From a virus (Duplodnaviria; Heunggongvirae; Uroviricota; Caudoviricetes): a stretch of 13,515 bases of DNA. The position numbers were made by a program, and so were the translations under genes. Positions 5,961 through 11,875 of the stretch are shown here, one piece after another (position 1 is the stretch's first letter; each line of letters opens with the position of its first letter). Under the pieces are notes generated by a model. That model was not told the origin of the DNA and did no database searches. It saw only the letters and a program-made list of their open reading frames with translations. The stretch spans positions 1-13,515 of the IMG/VR virus record IMGVR_UViG_3300028952_000008, one strand, 5' to 3'.

Positions 5961-6016
5961 AGCCTGCTTCTCCTTGACCTTTCGGTCCGTAAGAGGCTAA
6001 TCTCTATGTGTCGCAT
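5957..6016 (-). promoter_or_regulatory. hok leader with a translationally coupled 19-codon upstream ORF (mok-like)
   Basis: Minus-strand ATG at 6014-6016 opens MRHIEISLLRTERSRRSRL, ending in TGA that overlaps the hok ATG (ATGA). The uORF start sits in the palindrome TCTATGtgtcgCATAGA (6002-6019). Confidence 0.4.
5974..6003 (+). promoter_or_regulatory. Candidate promoter for a Sok-like antisense RNA
   Basis: Plus-strand TTGACC (5974-5979), 18-bp spacer, TAATCT (5998-6003); a transcript from about 6010 rightward would be antisense to the hok leader and uORF start region. No RNA evidence. Confidence 0.3.
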
Positions 6017-8335: not shown

Positions 8336-9061
8336 TCACTTTTCCGACACAATACGACTGGAGGAATCGACAATCTGACGGACAATATCCTGGTGCTTGT
8401 TCAGCTCACGCAGCGCGGCGCAGACTCGCTCCCACTTCTGGACATAACTTTTCGCCCGGCGCAGTTCGCGGTTTGCCATTTGCAGCGATGGTATAATCAG
8501 GTCATTGGCTCGCGTTTCAGTGAACGATGGTAGTGACTGCACAATGTCCCCCACAGTATCTGTTTTAATTTCTTCCTGTGTTGCCGCTTCCTGTACTGGT
8601 AACGCAACACCGGCTGGCTGAGGAAAGCCTTTACCAGGTGTTTTCACTACCGATACAACTTTCGGCTCTGCTGGTAAATTACCGTCCGGCAGGCAGTAAC
8701 GAAATTTACCGTTCTGATTTACGCGAATCAGACGACCTTTGCTGATGGCCATAGCCAGCGATGAGTTCACCCTGCGGGAAGTAATTCTGAATATCAGTGC
8801 AAGTTCATCAGCCGCTTTAGGGCCATGCTGTTCAATCGCCTCGATCAGCATTTGCGCTGTCACTTTAGAAGCCTGTGCTACAGATGCGTTTTCGTCGGTT
8901 TGAGTCAACCACCACATCGGGCCCTTGTTATCAGCTTCCCCACGACGCTTCAGTTTCCACAGCTCGTTAATCGCCTCATCCCGGGTCATTCCCAGACGTG
9001 CTGCCACTTCCTGGGAAGAGGCTTTTCCCATTGCTTTCAGTGCGTCAAAAACGGTCTCCAT
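8336..9061 (-). CDS. Hypothetical 241-aa protein with winged-helix-like N-terminus, directly downstream of ydaV
   Basis: The ORF-track ATG at 9112 would overlap ydaV by 29 nt; the ATG at 9061 follows SD GGGAGG (8-nt spacer), 22 nt after the ydaV stop. METVFDALKAMGKASSQEVAARLGMTRDEAINELWKLKRRG... looks like a wHTH. Position corresponds to ydaW of K-12 Rac as I recall it. Confidence 0.6.
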   Translation of the reverse strand: METVFDALKAMGKASSQEVAARLGMTRDEAINELWKLKRRGEADNKGPMWWLTQTDENASVAQASKVTAQMLIEAIEQHGPKAADELALIFRITSRRVNSSLAMAISKGRLIRVNQNGKFRYCLPDGNLPAEPKVVSVVKTPGKGFPQPAGVALPVQEAATQEEIKTDTVGDIVQSLPSFTETRANDLIIPSLQMANRELRRAKSYVQKWERVCAALRELNKHQDIVRQIVDSSSRIVSEK

Positions 9062-9083: not shown

Positions 9084-9830
9084 TTACTTCTCAATTCCTG
9101 GCTGACCAACATTCGGGCGCCAGCTCTCCCAGTTAAAATTCACCCATCGCCCGCCGTTCATGGTCATCCGATCCATAATCCTCTCGCCGAGCAATGTTTT
9201 CATGGCCTCATAGTTCAGGTTTGTCAGCATCCCCACGCTGCGGATCGACGCTGTCCGGCGATCAACAATCTGGTGCAGTACCACCTGCTCGTTTTTTGTC
9301 TCGCGCTGAATGCCAATTTCATCAAGAACCAGCAGATCCACTTCGCACAGTTCCCGCAAAAATTTTTCGCCTGATTGCCCGTCGTCATAGCTGGCGTGTA
9401 GAGCACTCATAACATCAGCCACGGTAACCACAATCACTGTCTGACCGTTTTTCAGCAGGCGATTCCCGATAGCCGCCGCCAGATGGTTTTTTCCGGTACC
9501 AGGTTTTCCGCTAAACGCAAAATTTGTACACCCGACCATCAGTTCATCGGCGATGGATTTCGCCTGGCTCAACGCGTATCGCTGGCCGTCGTTCTGCACC
9601 TGGTAATTCGAAAACGAGCATTTGCGGTGCAACGGCTGGATGCCGGAGCGATTCAGAATTTTTTCCACCCGCAACTGACGATTCTGGCGATTGATCTCCT
9701 CGCAACGTTTCTGGCCTTCTGCAAGTTGCCACTCGCGCCACTCCGCCACCGTCCTGAATGGCGCGGTTACATGTGGCGGGGCCAGTCTGCGGATACGTTC
9801 CAGAACGCCGCCTGTCGCAATATTTTTCAT
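9084..9830 (-). CDS. ydaV: DnaC/IstB-like AAA+ replication protein (helicase loader)
   Basis: 248 aa; Walker A-like GKPGTGKNHLAAAIG and Walker B LLVLDEIG; located immediately downstream of the ydaU-like initiator. Confidence 0.9.
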   Translation of the reverse strand: MKNIATGGVLERIRRLAPPHVTAPFRTVAEWREWQLAEGQKRCEEINRQNRQLRVEKILNRSGIQPLHRKCSFSNYQVQNDGQRYALSQAKSIADELMVGCTNFAFSGKPGTGKNHLAAAIGNRLLKNGQTVIVVTVADVMSALHASYDDGQSGEKFLRELCEVDLLVLDEIGIQRETKNEQVVLHQIVDRRTASIRSVGMLTNLNYEAMKTLLGERIMDRMTMNGGRWVNFNWESWRPNVGQPGIEK

Positions 9831-9836
9831 GGTCAG

Positions 9837-10625
9837 TTACCCCCTGAAGCCTGGCGGGATCGCACTGTCCGGAAACGAGACAGTGTTAACCTGTCGGAGC
9901 AACGTCTCAGGCCGAACACTTTTCGGCGCGAACAAGCCCTGGTATTCATTGGCGATGCTGTGTCGAATCACCTGCTCAGGGGTAAAACCCTGCTGGCGGA
10001 ATTTTTCCAGTTCCCGTATCGCCCCGTTAGCGCCCTGCTCCGTTCGAATCGGTTTTCGCAATGCCTGCCTGAACTGGACCCACTCATTCCAGAGTGTTTC
10101 TGGCAACCAGTCGGGCAGAGCAATGGCCTCCGGCTCGAATTGTTTAGACGCTCGTTTTTGCCGAGGGGGATTTAGGGGGAGATCAGTATTTATATCTTCC
10201 TCTTCCTCTTCCTCTGGTAACGCTTTTTGATCCGTTTGTGTAACGCTGGCAGCGTTACCTTTTCGCTTCAGTTCGCGTATTTTTGTAACTCTCTCGTTTG
10301 TAACCGCCCGTTTTTTCGAGCTTTTTCCGTTATGACGCTCAAAGTTTGGTAGTGAAAGCACTCCATCACTTTCGACCAGCCATCCAACCTGAATTAACGC
10401 ATCAGCAAAACCAGCCATAAAAGTGATACGGTCTATTGCACTTTTTGTAACGCCTCGAGCGTTACACTCTGCGTTACCGTCTATCATTTGTTGATCCGCC
10501 CATGCCCAGAAGCGAATGACTTTCCCTAATGCGGCATCTGGATCAATATTCAGAATCTCAGCAAGCCTGAATATTTCCGGCTTATCCGGCGTAATAACTT
10601 CGAGCTTTATCCAGTTTGAAGCCAT
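9837..10625 (-). CDS. ydaU: Putative phage replication initiator / replisome organiser (YdaU-like)
   Basis: 262 aa, ATG at 10625 with SD AAGGTG; acidic run EEEEEED mid-protein. The 5' half of the gene contains two 19-bp palindromes, reminiscent of lambda ori lying inside gene O. Immediately precedes the DnaC-like gene. Confidence 0.75.
   Translation of the reverse strand: MASNWIKLEVITPDKPEIFRLAEILNIDPDAALGKVIRFWAWADQQMIDGNAECNARGVTKSAIDRITFMAGFADALIQVGWLVESDGVLSLPNFERHNGKSSKKRAVTNERVTKIRELKRKGNAASVTQTDQKALPEEEEEEDINTDLPLNPPRQKRASKQFEPEAIALPDWLPETLWNEWVQFRQALRKPIRTEQGANGAIRELEKFRQQGFTPEQVIRHSIANEYQGLFAPKSVRPETLLRQVNTVSFPDSAIPPGFRG
10240..10258. repeat. 19-bp palindrome GTAACGCTGGCAGCGTTAC (copy 1, inside ydaU)
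   Basis: Direct reading; 7-bp arms GTAACGC/GCGTTAC with 5-bp spacer; an extra GTAACGC half-site at 10217-10223. Confidence 0.85.
10447..10465. repeat. 19-bp palindrome GTAACGCCTCGAGCGTTAC (copy 2, inside ydaU)
   Basis: Direct reading; same 7-bp arms; an extra GCGTTAC half-site at 10471-10477. Confidence 0.85.
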
Positions 10626-10638
10626 TTGTTTTCACCTT

Positions 10639-10657
10639 GTAACGCTCGCAGCGTTAC
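10639..10657. repeat. 19-bp palindrome GTAACGCTCGCAGCGTTAC (copy 3, 13 bp upstream of the ydaU start)
   Basis: Direct reading; same 7-bp arms; lies between the ydaT stop and the ydaU SD. Confidence 0.85.
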
Positions 10658-10667
10658 ATTTAACTGA

Positions 10668-10689
10668 TACCGAACAAAACAGTTCGGTA
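10668..10689 (-). promoter_or_regulatory. Intercistronic hairpin between ydaT and ydaU
   Basis: Perfect 8-bp inverted repeat TACCGAAC-N6-GTTCGGTA, 14 bp after the ydaT stop; downstream minus-strand sequence is only moderately U-rich, so a regulatory or processing hairpin is more likely than a strong terminator. Confidence 0.45.
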
Positions 10690-10702
10690 CGATTAATTTC
10701 AA

Positions 10703-11125
10703 TCAATGCACTACGACAGAATCGCTAGGAGAACCGCCGCCGCTGAAATGTGCTTTACGGTAAACGGCCTGGACTGCATCATCATGCGCATCAATTGCCG
10801 TACTCAGTGCATCCTGTGCCGCCAGTAATGCACGGCGTTCCAGGGTATCGAAGATGCAGAGTCGGTGACGCAGCTCGCGAGGAAGAATTGCCAGAACCGC
10901 AGGGATCAGTTTCTGAATTTTTTCCCTTTGCGCATTCGTTTCACCTTTCAACCAACGATGATAGATATTCTGCTGATTGTTCCAGTCCTTGCCTGGTACC
11001 AGGGGCAATTCGCCGCCCCCCTGGCGCAGATATTCTTCAGTAATTGCGTTAGCGACCCACGCCTGCCCTTTTTCGGCTGCCAGGGCTAACAACACTGATT
11101 CGATGTGCTCATGCTTGATTTTCAT
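10703..11125 (-). CDS. ydaT: YdaT-like protein (140 aa)
   Basis: 140 aa MKIKHEHIESVLLALAAEKGQAWVANAITEEY...; start overlaps the ydaS stop (ATGA). Size and position match Rac ydaT as I recall it. Confidence 0.8.
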   Translation of the reverse strand: MKIKHEHIESVLLALAAEKGQAWVANAITEEYLRQGGGELPLVPGKDWNNQQNIYHRWLKGETNAQREKIQKLIPAVLAILPRELRHRLCIFDTLERRALLAAQDALSTAIDAHDDAVQAVYRKAHFSGGGSPSDSVVVH

Positions 11126-11376
11126 GAATCAACTCCCATCAGCTTTTTCGTAGTAGTTTTATTTCTGCCAATAGTTAAAATTGCATCGGCAGAAAATAAT
11201 CCGTTTGATGCATGAGCGATTTTTTCAGCGTAATTTGTTTCGCCGGTATATTCTGTGCGAGGCAATTTTCCGTTATCCATCCATTTGTAGATTGCTCTTT
11301 GGCTGACACCACAAACGTCGGCCACAACAGAAACGCGAACAGTTTTGATTACATCTTCAAGTGTTTTCTGGTTCAT
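11122..11376 (-). CDS. ydaS: Cro-like HTH protein YdaS
   Basis: The ATG at 11376 has SD GAGGA; the ORF-track start at 11448 would put the N-terminus inside the operator region. MNQKTLEDVIKTVRVSVVADVCGVSQRAIYKWMDNGKLP... contains a helix-turn-helix. Divergent from racR. Confidence 0.8.
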   Translation of the reverse strand: MNQKTLEDVIKTVRVSVVADVCGVSQRAIYKWMDNGKLPRTEYTGETNYAEKIAHASNGLFSADAILTIGRNKTTTKKLMGVDS

Positions 11377-11455: not shown

Positions 11456-11875
11456 ATGGTTCATGAAGATAAAGCGCGTAAAGAGTTCGCCAGTAGGCTT
11501 GCGCTAGCCTGTGAAAACGCTGGTTATGAACAACATGGAAGGCAGGCAGAAATTGCCCGTCGAATGAAATTAACACCAAAAGCGGTTAGCAAATGGTTTA
11601 ATGGTGAAACAATTCCTCGCCGAGAGAAATTAAGGGAATTAGCAACACTCATTGGAACAACACCAACCTATCTTTTGGGAGAGGATACAGAAGAAAGTGG
11701 ACAGATACGTTTCTATCAGGAGTTAAATCCAAGACAAAAAATCATCATTGACCTTCTGGACGAGCTCCCTGACAGTGAGACAGATGAACTTTTAAAAACT
11801 CTTGAGGAGAAAAAACAGAAGTACAATGCAATTTACGAAGAGTTAGCACGAAAGAAAAAACAAAAAGCCTCTTAA
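11456..11875 (+). CDS. racR: XRE-family HTH prophage repressor
   Basis: 139 aa; HTH RQAEIARRMKLTPKAVSKWFNGETIPRREKLRELATLIG near the N-terminus; divergent from the Cro-like ydaS. The only in-frame ATG after the upstream stop is at 11456. Confidence 0.8.
   Translation: MVHEDKARKEFASRLALACENAGYEQHGRQAEIARRMKLTPKAVSKWFNGETIPRREKLRELATLIGTTPTYLLGEDTEESGQIRFYQELNPRQKIIIDLLDELPDSETDELLKTLEEKKQKYNAIYEELARKKKQKAS

What the first reader, a model, noticed from the sequence alone, without database searches (positions are those of the whole stretch)
10217..10657. Three dispersed copies of a 19-bp palindrome GTAACGC-N5-GCGTTAC in and just upstream of ydaU: candidate origin or operator sites
Exact 7-bp arms occur as perfect inverted repeats at 10240-10258, 10447-10465 and 10639-10657, about 200 bp apart, with extra half-sites at 10217 and 10471. 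Two copies lie inside the 5' half of the initiator-like gene and one overlaps its ribosome-binding region. This resembles lambda, where ori lies within gene O and is bound by O dimers, but here the sites are dispersed rather than tandem. Alternatively they could be operators for a dimeric regulator (YdaT or the initiator itself) that autoregulates ydaU translation and loops DNA.
Basis: seen in the sequence. Interest (0 to 1): 0.6.

Follow-up and report, generated by a model that had tools for sequence, protein, structure and literature searches.

The report
Phage origin sites inside initiator gene
The three palindromes are real and are most likely the sites where a Rac-type prophage's replication initiator binds its own gene to start DNA copying; the same 14-base site is kept in this gene family from E. 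coli to Planctomycetes and has even shaped the protein's sequence.

Summary
Observation confirmed. Three perfect GTAACGC-N5-GCGTTAC copies sit at 10240, 10447 and 10639, with half-sites at 10217 and 10471 (0 of 200 shuffles reach three).

The window is a Rac-type E. coli prophage. The gene at 10625-9837 (minus strand) encodes a two-domain initiator. Its C-domain is 78% identical to K-12 YdaU. Its N-domain is unrelated to K-12's DUF1376 and has no Pfam family.

The palindrome follows this N-domain:
- It occupies the same two in-gene positions in homologues of 40-55% identity from at least five phyla. The arms are invariant and the spacers vary freely.
- Synonymous codons are skewed towards the motif (Leu TTA 26/27 against a 10% background).
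- The half-site is read in different frames in different homologues.
- One clade changes every site together, from GTAAC to GTCAC.
- Of 120 viral stretches carrying the palindrome, 100 carry the N-domain gene at it.
- YdaT is present in only 6 of 57 loci and binds a different, published sequence.

The second in-gene site lies in the interdomain linker and is followed directly by a conserved polypurine tract, as in lambda ori.

Best reading: initiator-binding origin sites, a new variant of the in-gene lambda-type origin. Binding and origin activity are inferred, not shown.

The parts
9837..10625 (-). Replication initiator gene (262 aa), annotated in RefSeq as 'phage replication initiator YdaU family protein'. 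It has an N-terminal putative origin-binding domain (about aa 1-121), a linker (about aa 122-150) and a C-terminal O-like/YdaU-like domain.
   Evidence: Searches give the ORF and its annotation. One search matches PHROG 2509/9474 'replication initiation protein' and PHROG 678 'O-like' (aa 85-237). One search shows the C-domain is 78% identical to K-12 YdaU and the N-domain is unrelated. One search finds no Pfam family for the N-domain. One search finds 6,488 cluster representatives that share the N-domain.
10263..10625 (-). Coding region of the N-domain (aa 1-121). It is helical with a beta-hairpin and is weakly winged-helix-like.
10639..10657 (.). Site U: palindrome GTAACGC-TGCGA-GCGTTAC (gene strand) in the ydaT-initiator spacer, directly upstream of the Shine-Dalgarno sequence.
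   Evidence: An upstream copy occurs only in enterobacterial relatives, 13-27 nt before the ATG (6 of 57 loci).
10471..10477 (-). Extra half-site GTAACGC (gene strand), 12 bp before site A, at codons 50-52 (G-N-A). It corresponds to a 12-bp, 4-codon insertion typical of the enteric clade.
   Evidence: It is polymorphic (C/T at 10473) among close E. coli/Shigella variants.
10447..10465 (.). Site A: palindrome at codons 54-60, read as C-N-A-R-G-V-T. It lies in a low-confidence loop of the N-domain.
   Evidence: Present at the same position in 36 of 57 homologous loci. pLDDT is below 50 for residues 50-56.
10240..10258 (.). Site B: palindrome at codons 123-129, read as G-N-A-A-S-V-T, in the interdomain linker. 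It is the proposed origin core.
   Evidence: Present in 34 of 57 loci, often within an array of 11-12-bp-phased half-sites. pLDDT is below 50 for residues 123-136.
10217..10223 (-). Tail half-site GCGTTAC (gene strand), read in another frame as A-L-P (codons 135-137).
   Evidence: Leu is coded TTA in 26 of 27 non-enteric homologues against a 10% background, and in 13 of 13 in a non-redundant set, p=4e-13.
10195..10215 (-). Polypurine tract AGAGGAAGAGGAAGAGGAAGA on the gene strand, starting 1 nt after the tail half-site and encoding the acidic EEEEEE linker. It is followed by a short AT-rich stretch (GC 0.375 at 10180-10219). Candidate unwinding or helicase-loading region.
   Evidence: A purine run of at least 14 nt starts 1-2 nt after the last half-site in 31 of 57 loci, in two different reading frames.
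9084..9830 (-). ydaV, a DnaC/IstB-type AAA+ helicase-loader gene immediately downstream of the initiator gene.
   Evidence: IstB_IS21 1.4e-19 and Bac_DnaA ATPase domain 1.7e-8. One search gives the annotation.
10703..11125 (-). ydaT (CII-like regulator). It is context only and is not the palindrome binder.
   Evidence: Its own box TGATTCATGAAAATCA lies at 11116-11131 and matches the published YdaT-box (PMC11879457).

Best explanation
The palindromes are the recognition sites of the initiator's own N-terminal domain, and together they form the prophage's replication origin, embedded in the initiator gene.

Proposed mechanism:
1. The gene at 10625-9837 is transcribed rightward from the ydaS/ydaT operon and makes a two-domain initiator.
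2. The N-domain, probably a winged helix, binds as a dimer to GTAACGC-N5-GCGTTAC. Further subunits bind the neighbouring half-sites on an 11-12-bp lattice.
3. Occupancy of site B and its tail half-site, possibly bridged to site A 207 bp away and site U 399 bp away, destabilises the adjacent polypurine/AT-rich tract at 10180-10215.
4. The C-domain (O-like, with a DnaT-like tail) brings in the YdaV (DnaC-type) loader with host DnaB.

Site U abuts the ribosome-binding site and exists only in the enterobacterial branch. It may additionally let the initiator damp its own expression.

What is shown: the sites exist, they are under strong DNA-level selection, they co-occur with and co-vary with this N-domain across phyla, and they sit in a lambda-like position.

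What is inferred: physical binding by the N-domain, dimeric stoichiometry, unwinding at the polypurine tract, recruitment of YdaV/DnaB, and any autoregulation.
For: 1. Non-chance: 3 exact copies against 0.06 expected.

2. Natural module swap: K-12 Rac has a 94% identical YdaT and a 78% identical initiator C-domain, but an unrelated N-domain. It has zero GTAACGC and a different repeat set (GATGTTCAAACA) in the same linker position.

3. Conservation: the same palindrome sits at the same two codon positions in homologues of 40-55% protein identity from Enterobacterales, Pseudomonadales, Burkholderiales, Planctomycetota, Ignavibacteriota, Acidobacteriota and Phycisphaerales. The spacers vary freely.

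4. Density: the half-site occurs at 6.76 per kb in -60..+480 of the gene against 0.127 per kb in 259 kb of flanks. No full palindrome lies outside the gene region in those loci.

5. Synonymous-site skew in 48 non-enteric sequences:
- V59 is GTT in 38/47, against a 28% background.
- N55 is AAC in 40/40, against 57%.
- G50 is GGT in 34/40, against 23%.
- L136 is TTA in 26/27, against 10%.
The skew holds in 24 sequences less than 70% identical to each other (p from 1e-3 to 4e-13).

6. Frame independence: the same DNA motif is read in different frames (x-V-T versus A-L-P; three frames in L137). The polypurine tract is read in two frames.

7. Structure: the encoded peptides fall in pLDDT<50 loops.

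8. Concerted change: all sites switch from GTAAC to GTCAC in one initiator clade, including isolated direct half-sites. Related Pseudomonadaceae hosts carry both types.

9. Reverse test: 100 of 120 viral stretches with the palindrome have it in or within 150 bp of an N-domain ORF, including all 52 stretches with two or more copies.

10. Shared genes: the initiator is the only gene common to all 57 loci, and DnaB- or DnaC-like genes follow it in many.

11. Population level: among 47 close variants, arm positions vary at 3/42 and spacer positions at 9/15 (Fisher p=8e-5).

12. Lambda ori has the same logic: palindromic iterons in the mid-gene linker followed by a purine-rich tract.

13. Whole genomes: in Rac-like phage vB_EcoS-613R10 and in phage TL-2011b, all full palindromes lie at the initiator gene.
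Against: - No experiment links this protein to this DNA or shows origin firing here.
- The window has one palindrome plus one half-site at each in-gene location, not a classical tandem iteron array.
- The A-B distance varies (189-231 bp) without helical phasing.
- The region next to site B is only mildly AT-rich (GC 0.375), so the unwinding element is conjectural.
- About a quarter of homologues lack recognisable sites, including a Verrucomicrobiota clade.
- No protein residue tracks the GTAAC/GTCAC switch cleanly; L112 is an exception.
- Xanthomonas phage CP2 has two further full palindromes outside the initiator gene. This suggests a regulatory role beyond origin function.
- The sequences compared are related by descent, so the p-values are approximate.
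Confidence: 0.6

Rival explanations
1. The sites are operators only. The initiator, as a dimer, binds them to repress or roadblock its own transcription or translation, as the Rep proteins of iteron plasmids do at inverted repeats, and the origin lies elsewhere.
For: Site U abuts the Shine-Dalgarno sequence. Initiators of iteron plasmids autoregulate through inverted repeats (established knowledge). Phage CP2 has two extra full palindromes at gene boundaries outside the initiator gene.
Against: Site U is confined to the enteric branch (6 of 57 loci), whereas the in-gene sites A and B are the conserved ones. No sigma-70-like promoter lies near any site on the gene strand. Site B is tied to the interdomain linker and to a polypurine tract conserved at the DNA level, which an operator does not need. 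This reading is not exclusive of an origin function.
Confidence: 0.15
2. The palindromes act as hairpins in the mRNA, or in single-stranded or cruciform DNA. They could control mRNA stability or translation, or serve as a primosome-assembly signal.
For: Each copy is a perfect 7-bp stem with a 5-nt loop and is predicted to fold. The ydaT-initiator spacer folds with z=-2.26. The GTAAC->GTCAC / GTTAC->GTGAC change keeps pairing. Some relatives have DnaT-like C-domains.
Against: The stem sequence, not merely the pairing, is invariant across phyla. At arm position 7, 25 of 84 sites deviate in one arm and none is compensated. Isolated and direct-repeat half-sites cannot pair, yet they carry the same sequence and sit on an 11-12-bp lattice. 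Numbers of direct and inverted half-sites are unbalanced. There is no Rfam match.
Confidence: 0.07
3. The sites are bound by a conserved host factor rather than by the phage initiator.
For: Some host factors keep one specificity across phyla (DnaA, ParB; established knowledge). Binding by the initiator is untested.
Against: The motif variant follows the initiator clade, not the host. Pseudomonadaceae loci carry either GTAAC (L094, L105, L129) or GTCAC (L142, L145). The motif is not enriched in flanking host or prophage DNA. It matches no host-factor consensus known to me (own knowledge).
Confidence: 0.05
4. The sites are operators of YdaT or of the cI/Cro-like regulators of the immunity region.
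For: ydaT lies immediately upstream. A near-match to a YdaT box lies 33 bp from site U, at 10690-10705.
Against: The published YdaT site is (A/T)TGATT-N6-AATCAA (PMC11879457, PMC9986795). K-12 Rac has a 94% identical YdaT and no GTAACGC. YdaT occurs in only 6 of 57 loci, and repressors are not shared across them.
Confidence: 0.02
5. The palindromes are a by-product of a repeated, functionally required peptide motif (G-N-A-x-x-V-T), or arise by chance.
For: The peptide NAxxVT is conserved twice in the family.
Against: Synonymous codons are fixed towards the DNA motif. The half-site is read in other frames as A-L-P or S-H-D. A third copy is non-coding. The peptides lie in low-confidence loops. 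No shuffle reaches the observed count.
Confidence: 0.01

Closest known systems
Bacteriophage lambda ori and O protein (lambdoid in-gene origins)
   Same: The origin lies inside the initiator gene, in DNA coding for the linker between a DNA-binding N-domain and a loader-recruiting C-domain. The binding sites have dyad symmetry and a purine-rich tract follows them directly. The loader gene is next downstream. The N-domain and its sites are exchanged as one module between related prophages.
   Different: The proteins show no detectable homology to lambda O (BLASTP E=0.47; no Phage_rep_O hit). Lambda has four tandem 18-bp iterons within about 85 bp. Here there are single palindromes plus half-sites at two in-gene locations 207 bp apart, and a third copy upstream. 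The follower tract is GA-polypurine rather than A-rich. Lambdoid specificities diversify between phages, whereas this site is nearly frozen across phyla.
Rac prophage oriJ / K-12 YdaU (DUF1376-type initiator)
   Same: Same prophage, same attachment region (trkG-ttcA) and same gene order. The C-domain is 78% identical and ydaV is the same. K-12 ydaU also carries repeats in its linker-coding DNA. oriJ is known to be an active Rac origin (PMC3945230 Fig. S3 legend; Diaz and Pritchard, own knowledge).
   Different: The N-domain is a different family, and the repeats are different (GATGTTCAAACA, clustered within about 90 bp). I found no sequence-level definition of oriJ in the searchable library.
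Iteron plasmid initiators (RepA of pPS10/P1/F, pi of R6K)
   Same: These are winged-helix-type initiators that use both direct repeats (origin iterons) and inverted repeats (operators for autorepression). This family also mixes direct and inverted half-sites, and site U sits just upstream of the gene.
   Different: Membership is not established, because fold matches are weak. The half-sites are 7 bp on an 11-12-bp lattice, not about 20-bp iterons. The sites lie inside the coding sequence.
YdaT-box / CII-like regulation in Rac and CP-933P
   Same: It is an inverted repeat in the same operon, and is present in the window at 11116-11131.
   Different: The sequence differs ((A/T)TGATT-N6-AATCAA) and so does the spacer length. 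It is not linked to the initiator N-domain.

Membership tests
Lambda-type in-gene phage origin (works-like class) | Repeated initiator-binding sites located inside the initiator gene, in the interdomain linker-coding DNA | tested here: met
   Site B and the tail half-site lie at codons 123-137, between the N-domain and the C-domain. The position is the same in 34 of 57 homologous loci.
Lambda-type in-gene phage origin (works-like class) | Three to four tandem iterons of about 18-19 bp within about 100 bp | tested here: not met
   The window has one palindrome plus one half-site per in-gene location, 207 bp apart. Lambda has four iterons in 85 bp. Some relatives do have arrays of 5-7 half-sites.
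Lambda-type in-gene phage origin (works-like class) | Adjacent A/T-rich or purine-skewed unwinding tract | tested here: inconclusive
   A 21-nt polypurine tract lies 1 nt after the tail half-site and local GC is 0.375. The tract is conserved across phyla and across reading frames. Unwinding was not tested.
Lambda-type in-gene phage origin (works-like class) | Helicase-loader gene immediately downstream of the initiator gene | tested here: met
   ydaV at 9084-9830 is IstB/DnaC-like. DnaC- or DnaB-like genes follow the initiator in 19 distant loci.
Lambda-type in-gene phage origin (works-like class) | Initiator binds the repeats, and the fragment supports replication | not testable with these tools
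   This needs EMSA or footprinting and an ori-plasmid assay.
Lambda O protein family (Pfam Phage_rep_O) | Sequence homology of the N-terminal DNA-binding domain | tested here: not met
   No Pfam hit at E<=10 except DUF6760 at 0.24. BLASTP against lambda O gives E=0.47.
YdaU / DUF1376 family | DUF1376 N-terminal domain | tested here: not met
   K-12 YdaU matches PF07120 at 2.7e-26 and the window protein does not. The N-termini do not align.
YdaU / DUF1376 family | YdaU-type C-terminal domain | tested here: met
   78% identity over aa 139-262. PHROG 6451 and 678 match.
YdaT operator (YdaT-box) | (A/T)TGATT-N6-AATCAA inverted repeat | tested here: not met
   The palindrome sequence and spacer differ from it. 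The true box is found elsewhere in the window.
Winged-helix iteron-binding initiators (plasmid Rep type) | Winged-helix fold of the DNA-binding domain | tested here: inconclusive
Structured RNA element | Base pairs maintained by compensatory change, or a match to a known family | tested here: not met
   There are 25 uncompensated deviations at arm position 7 and none compensated. The only concerted change also affects unpaired half-sites. No Rfam match.

The most novel reading that the evidence does not exclude
A very large, Pfam-unclassified family of phage and prophage initiators has kept one DNA recognition code (GTAACGC-N5-GCGTTAC, with a GTCAC variant) across bacterial phyla. The family has about 6,500 cluster representatives at 50% identity. 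Because the origin lies inside the initiator gene, the cis-acting sites have imprinted 'conserved' peptide motifs on the protein: NAxxVT twice, ALP, and EEKRRE from a polypurine tract. Part of the protein's sequence conservation would then be a shadow of DNA function. The origin would be bipartite, with a loop-coding site A and a linker array B followed by a GA tract. The initiator might also act as a regulator at extra-genic copies, as in phage CP2 and at site U here.
Probability: 0.5. Interest if true: 0.65.

Novelty: new variant of a known kind. Interest (0 to 1): 0.55.

Why it matters
If confirmed, this would have four consequences.

First, it gives a sequence-level origin for a common variant of the Rac prophage and its relatives. 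About 450 of 5,426 complete E. coli genomes carry a close copy covering at least 80% of this 1.7-kb segment. Related phages include TL-2011b, from an EHEC outbreak strain, and Xanthomonas, Ralstonia and Vibrio phages.

Second, it names the recognition site for a large initiator family that has no Pfam entry. Origins could then be predicted from sequence alone in thousands of phages and prophages across phyla.

Third, it is a clear example of overlapping codes. A DNA-binding site inside a gene fixes rare codons and creates conserved peptide motifs in disordered loops. This is a caution for anyone reading protein conservation as protein function.

Fourth, the natural GTAAC/GTCAC pair offers a ready-made specificity-swap experiment.

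The general principle, an origin inside the initiator gene, has been known since lambda.

Tried and rejected
- YdaT, cI or Cro as the binder: rejected on the published YdaT site, the K-12 comparison and gene co-occurrence.
- Known RNA family: none found. The RNA-hairpin reading was weakened by the pair analysis.
- Intrinsic terminator: the scan flags 10240-10258 on the + strand, but the number of terminator-like sites is within the shuffle range (3 against 1.9 +/- 1.3). I did not pursue it.
- Promoter overlapping the sites: none on the gene strand.
- Residues that determine A versus C at half-site position 3: five N-terminal positions differ in the GTCAC clade, but L112 breaks the correlation, so no call was made.
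- Helical phasing of the A-B distance: none (189-231 bp).
- Literature: searches for YdaU, oriJ, the motif itself, the Stx-phage 'Eru' replication regions and phage CP2 found no description of these sites. The key oriJ papers (Diaz and Pritchard 1978/79; Potrykus et al. 2000) are not in the library, so prior sequence-level work on oriJ cannot be excluded.
- Genome-wide count in a whole E. coli chromosome: not possible with these tools. It was replaced by counts in 259 kb of flanks, three complete or near-complete phage genomes and a viral-collection scan.
Full report
**1. The observation**

The window contains exactly three matches to GTAACGC-N5-GCGTTAC, at 10240-10258, 10447-10465 and 10639-10657. 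All three are perfect, and no further match appears when two mismatches are allowed. Dinucleotide-preserving shuffles give 0.06 on average, and none of 200 reaches three.

**2. Context**

The segment is identical to E. coli chromosomes, where it lies in a Rac-type prophage between trkG and ttcA. The genes run on the minus strand:
- a cI-like repressor at 11456-11875 (+ strand);
- a Cro-like HTH gene;
- ydaT at 11125-10703;
- the initiator at 10625-9837;
- ydaV, a DnaC/IstB-like loader, at 9830-9084.

Read in the gene's own direction, the sites fall as follows:
- Site U ends one base before the Shine-Dalgarno AAGGTG.
- A half-site plus site A occupy codons 50-60.
- Site B occupies codons 123-129.
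- A tail half-site occupies codons 135-137.
- A 21-nt polypurine tract that encodes EEEEEE follows directly.

**3. A natural swap experiment**

Compared with K-12 Rac, YdaT is 94% identical and the initiator's C-terminal 124 residues are 78% identical. The N-terminal 138 residues do not align at all. K-12 YdaU carries DUF1376. The window protein has no Pfam family and matches only PHROG 'replication initiation protein' families. K-12 has no GTAACGC anywhere in 5 kb. It carries a different repeat (GATGTTCAAACA, direct and inverted) in the equivalent linker-coding DNA. Homology between the two prophages resumes just after these repeats. The palindromes therefore travel with the N-domain and not with YdaT, whose published site is (A/T)TGATT-N6-AATCAA (PMC11879457, PMC9986795). 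That box is present separately at the ydaT start codon in the window.

**4. Comparative evidence**

A profile search of one genome per species returned 69 loci with the N-domain at 34-96% identity. They come from Enterobacterales, Pseudomonadales, Burkholderiales, Planctomycetota, Verrucomicrobiota, Ignavibacteriota, Acidobacteriota and others. The exact 7+7 palindrome sits at the same two codon positions in most of them, with unrelated spacers.

Half-site density is 6.76 per kb in the first 540 bp of the gene region against 0.127 per kb in 259 kb of flanks.

In frame, the palindrome reads xGT-AAC-GCx-xxx-xGC-GTT-ACx. This gives the peptide [G/C/S]-N-A-x-[S/G]-V-T, which is conserved twice in the family. 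The conservation is at the DNA level. In 48 non-enteric sequences the codon choices are as follows:

| Position | Codon | Observed | Background |
|---|---|---|---|
| V59 | GTT | 38/47 | 28% |
| N55 | AAC | 40/40 | 57% |
| G50 | GGT | 34/40 | 23% |
| L136 (tail half-site, read A-L-P) | TTA | 26/27 | 10% |

The skew persists in 24 sequences less than 70% identical to each other, with p from 1e-3 to 4e-13. These p-values are approximate because the sequences share ancestry.

In relatives where half-sites are 11 bp apart, the same DNA word is read in three frames (L137). The peptide segments concerned are predicted as low-confidence loops, with pLDDT below 50 at residues 50-56 and 123-136.

Among 47 distinct close E. 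coli/Shigella variants, arm positions of the three palindromes vary at 3 of 42 and spacer positions at 9 of 15 (Fisher p=8e-5).

**5. Co-variation and the reverse test**

One initiator clade carries GTCACGC-N5-GCGTGAC at every site, including isolated direct half-sites. The clade comprises L112, L137, L138, L142, L143, L145 and a Vibrio phage. Pseudomonadaceae hosts carry either type, so the variant follows the initiator and not the host.

In the reverse direction, I scanned a viral contig collection for the exact palindrome. In 100 of the first 120 stretches, the palindrome lay in or within 150 bp of an ORF matching the N-domain profile. This included all 52 stretches with two or more copies.

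The initiator is the only gene shared by all 57 analysed loci. YdaT occurs in six.

In the Rac-like phage vB_EcoS-613R10 and in TL-2011b, every full palindrome is at the initiator gene.

**6. Architecture**

Distances between half-site cores are 14 bp for head-to-head pairs, 11-12 bp for same-orientation pairs, or twice that. Many relatives have arrays of five to seven half-sites at site B.

A polypurine run (AGAGAAGAGAAG..., 14-33 nt) begins 1-2 nt after the last half-site in 31 of 57 loci, in two different reading frames.

Lambda's annotated ori shows the same logic. Four palindromic iterons lie in the mid-O linker and are followed by a purine-rich tract. The proteins themselves are not detectably related.

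The N-domain model is helical with a beta-hairpin. Structure searches give only weak matches, nearly all to winged-helix DNA-binding domains.

**7. Interpretation**

The best-supported reading is that these are the initiator's own binding sites and constitute the prophage origin. Site B with the polypurine/AT-rich tract would be the core, and site A a conserved auxiliary site. Site U is an enterobacterial addition (6 of 57 loci) that may serve autoregulation.

Binding, unwinding and loader recruitment are all inferred.

The hairpin reading is weakened for two reasons. First, 25 one-arm deviations at the innermost arm position are never compensated. Second, unpaired direct half-sites share the same sequence and lattice. 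No Rfam family matches.

A purely regulatory role cannot be excluded. It gains some support from two extra-genic palindromes in phage CP2.

**8. Novelty**

An origin inside the initiator gene is classical. What appears undescribed, as far as the searchable library shows, is the following:
- this initiator family, with 6,488 cluster representatives at E<=0.001;
- its near-universal recognition site;
- the split A/B layout with a GA tract;
- the imprint of the sites on the protein sequence.

On that last point, NAxxVT occurs at the site A position in 92 of 136 diverse representatives.

The older oriJ papers are not in the library, so earlier sequence-level work on Rac origins cannot be ruled out. 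I rate the finding a new variant of a known kind, of moderate interest.

Noticed in passing
window 11116-11131; 10690-10705; 8715-8730: The published YdaT-box (TGATT-N6-AATCA core) is present exactly at the ydaT start codon, as in K-12 Rac. A one-mismatch copy overlaps the ydaT stop codon, 33 bp upstream of site U. Another exact copy lies inside the DUF1627 gene. The latter two are not known YdaT sites.
   Followed up: partly
window 10668-10691: A second inverted repeat (TACCGAAC-N6-GTTCGGTA) lies in the 77-bp ydaT-initiator spacer, which is absent from K-12 (12-bp spacer there). It is predicted to form a hairpin in the mRNA (spacer fold z=-2.26). It has no T-run on the gene strand, so it is not an obvious terminator.
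   Followed up: partly
L002 (E. coli K-12 NC_000913.3) 2505-2590, i.e. ydaU codons about 129-157: K-12 ydaU carries its own repeat family (GATGTTCAAACA, with direct and inverted copies) in the linker-coding DNA, followed by an A-rich stretch. These are candidate iterons of the classical Rac origin oriJ.
   Followed up: partly
L274 (Xanthomonas phage CP2, NC_020205.1) 5976-5994 and 34142-34172: Two full GTAACGC-N5-GCGTTAC palindromes lie outside the initiator gene. One is at the ORF8 stop, 37 bp before ORF9. The other, with an extra half-site, is at the 5' end of minus-strand ORF30. Chance expectation is about 1e-4 per genome, so the initiator may have additional targets.
   Followed up: no
window 9837-9893 (initiator aa 244-262): The last 19 residues resemble the C-terminus of primosomal protein DnaT (NCBIfam NF002770, E=0.004), and K-12 YdaU shows the same match. 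In other relatives the N-domain is fused to a DnaT-like ssDNA-binding domain (PF17948). The N-domain is thus a mobile module joined to several replisome-recruiting C-domains.
   Followed up: partly
L114-L121, L125, L127, L134, L136 (Verrucomicrobiota loci): This clade (N-terminus MRRPWIKIE) has lost the in-gene palindromes, with only AAACGAT...GTTAC remnants, and has lost the polypurine tract. It keeps a single GTAACGC about 55 nt upstream of the start codon. Its origin may have moved or its specificity may have changed.
   Followed up: no
window 10473: The extra half-site next to site A is polymorphic in E. coli/Shigella prophages (GTAACGC in 22 and GTAATGC in 25 of 47 distinct variants). The three full palindromes are almost invariant.
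   Followed up: yes
L088 (Pantoea sp.) 2411-2500: The region upstream of the initiator gene repeats the gene's own site-A segment (GACGGTAACGCAAATAGTAACGCTGCGAGCGTTACAAAAAGCG). This suggests the upstream site U can arise by duplication of site A.
   Followed up: no
phage records (for example Salmonella phages 66FD/65FD, epsilon15, Vibrio phage 1.211.B): C-5 cytosine methylase genes lie next to, or overlap the match to, the initiator gene in several phages. The half-site contains a CpG (ACGC). No link was tested.
   Followed up: no
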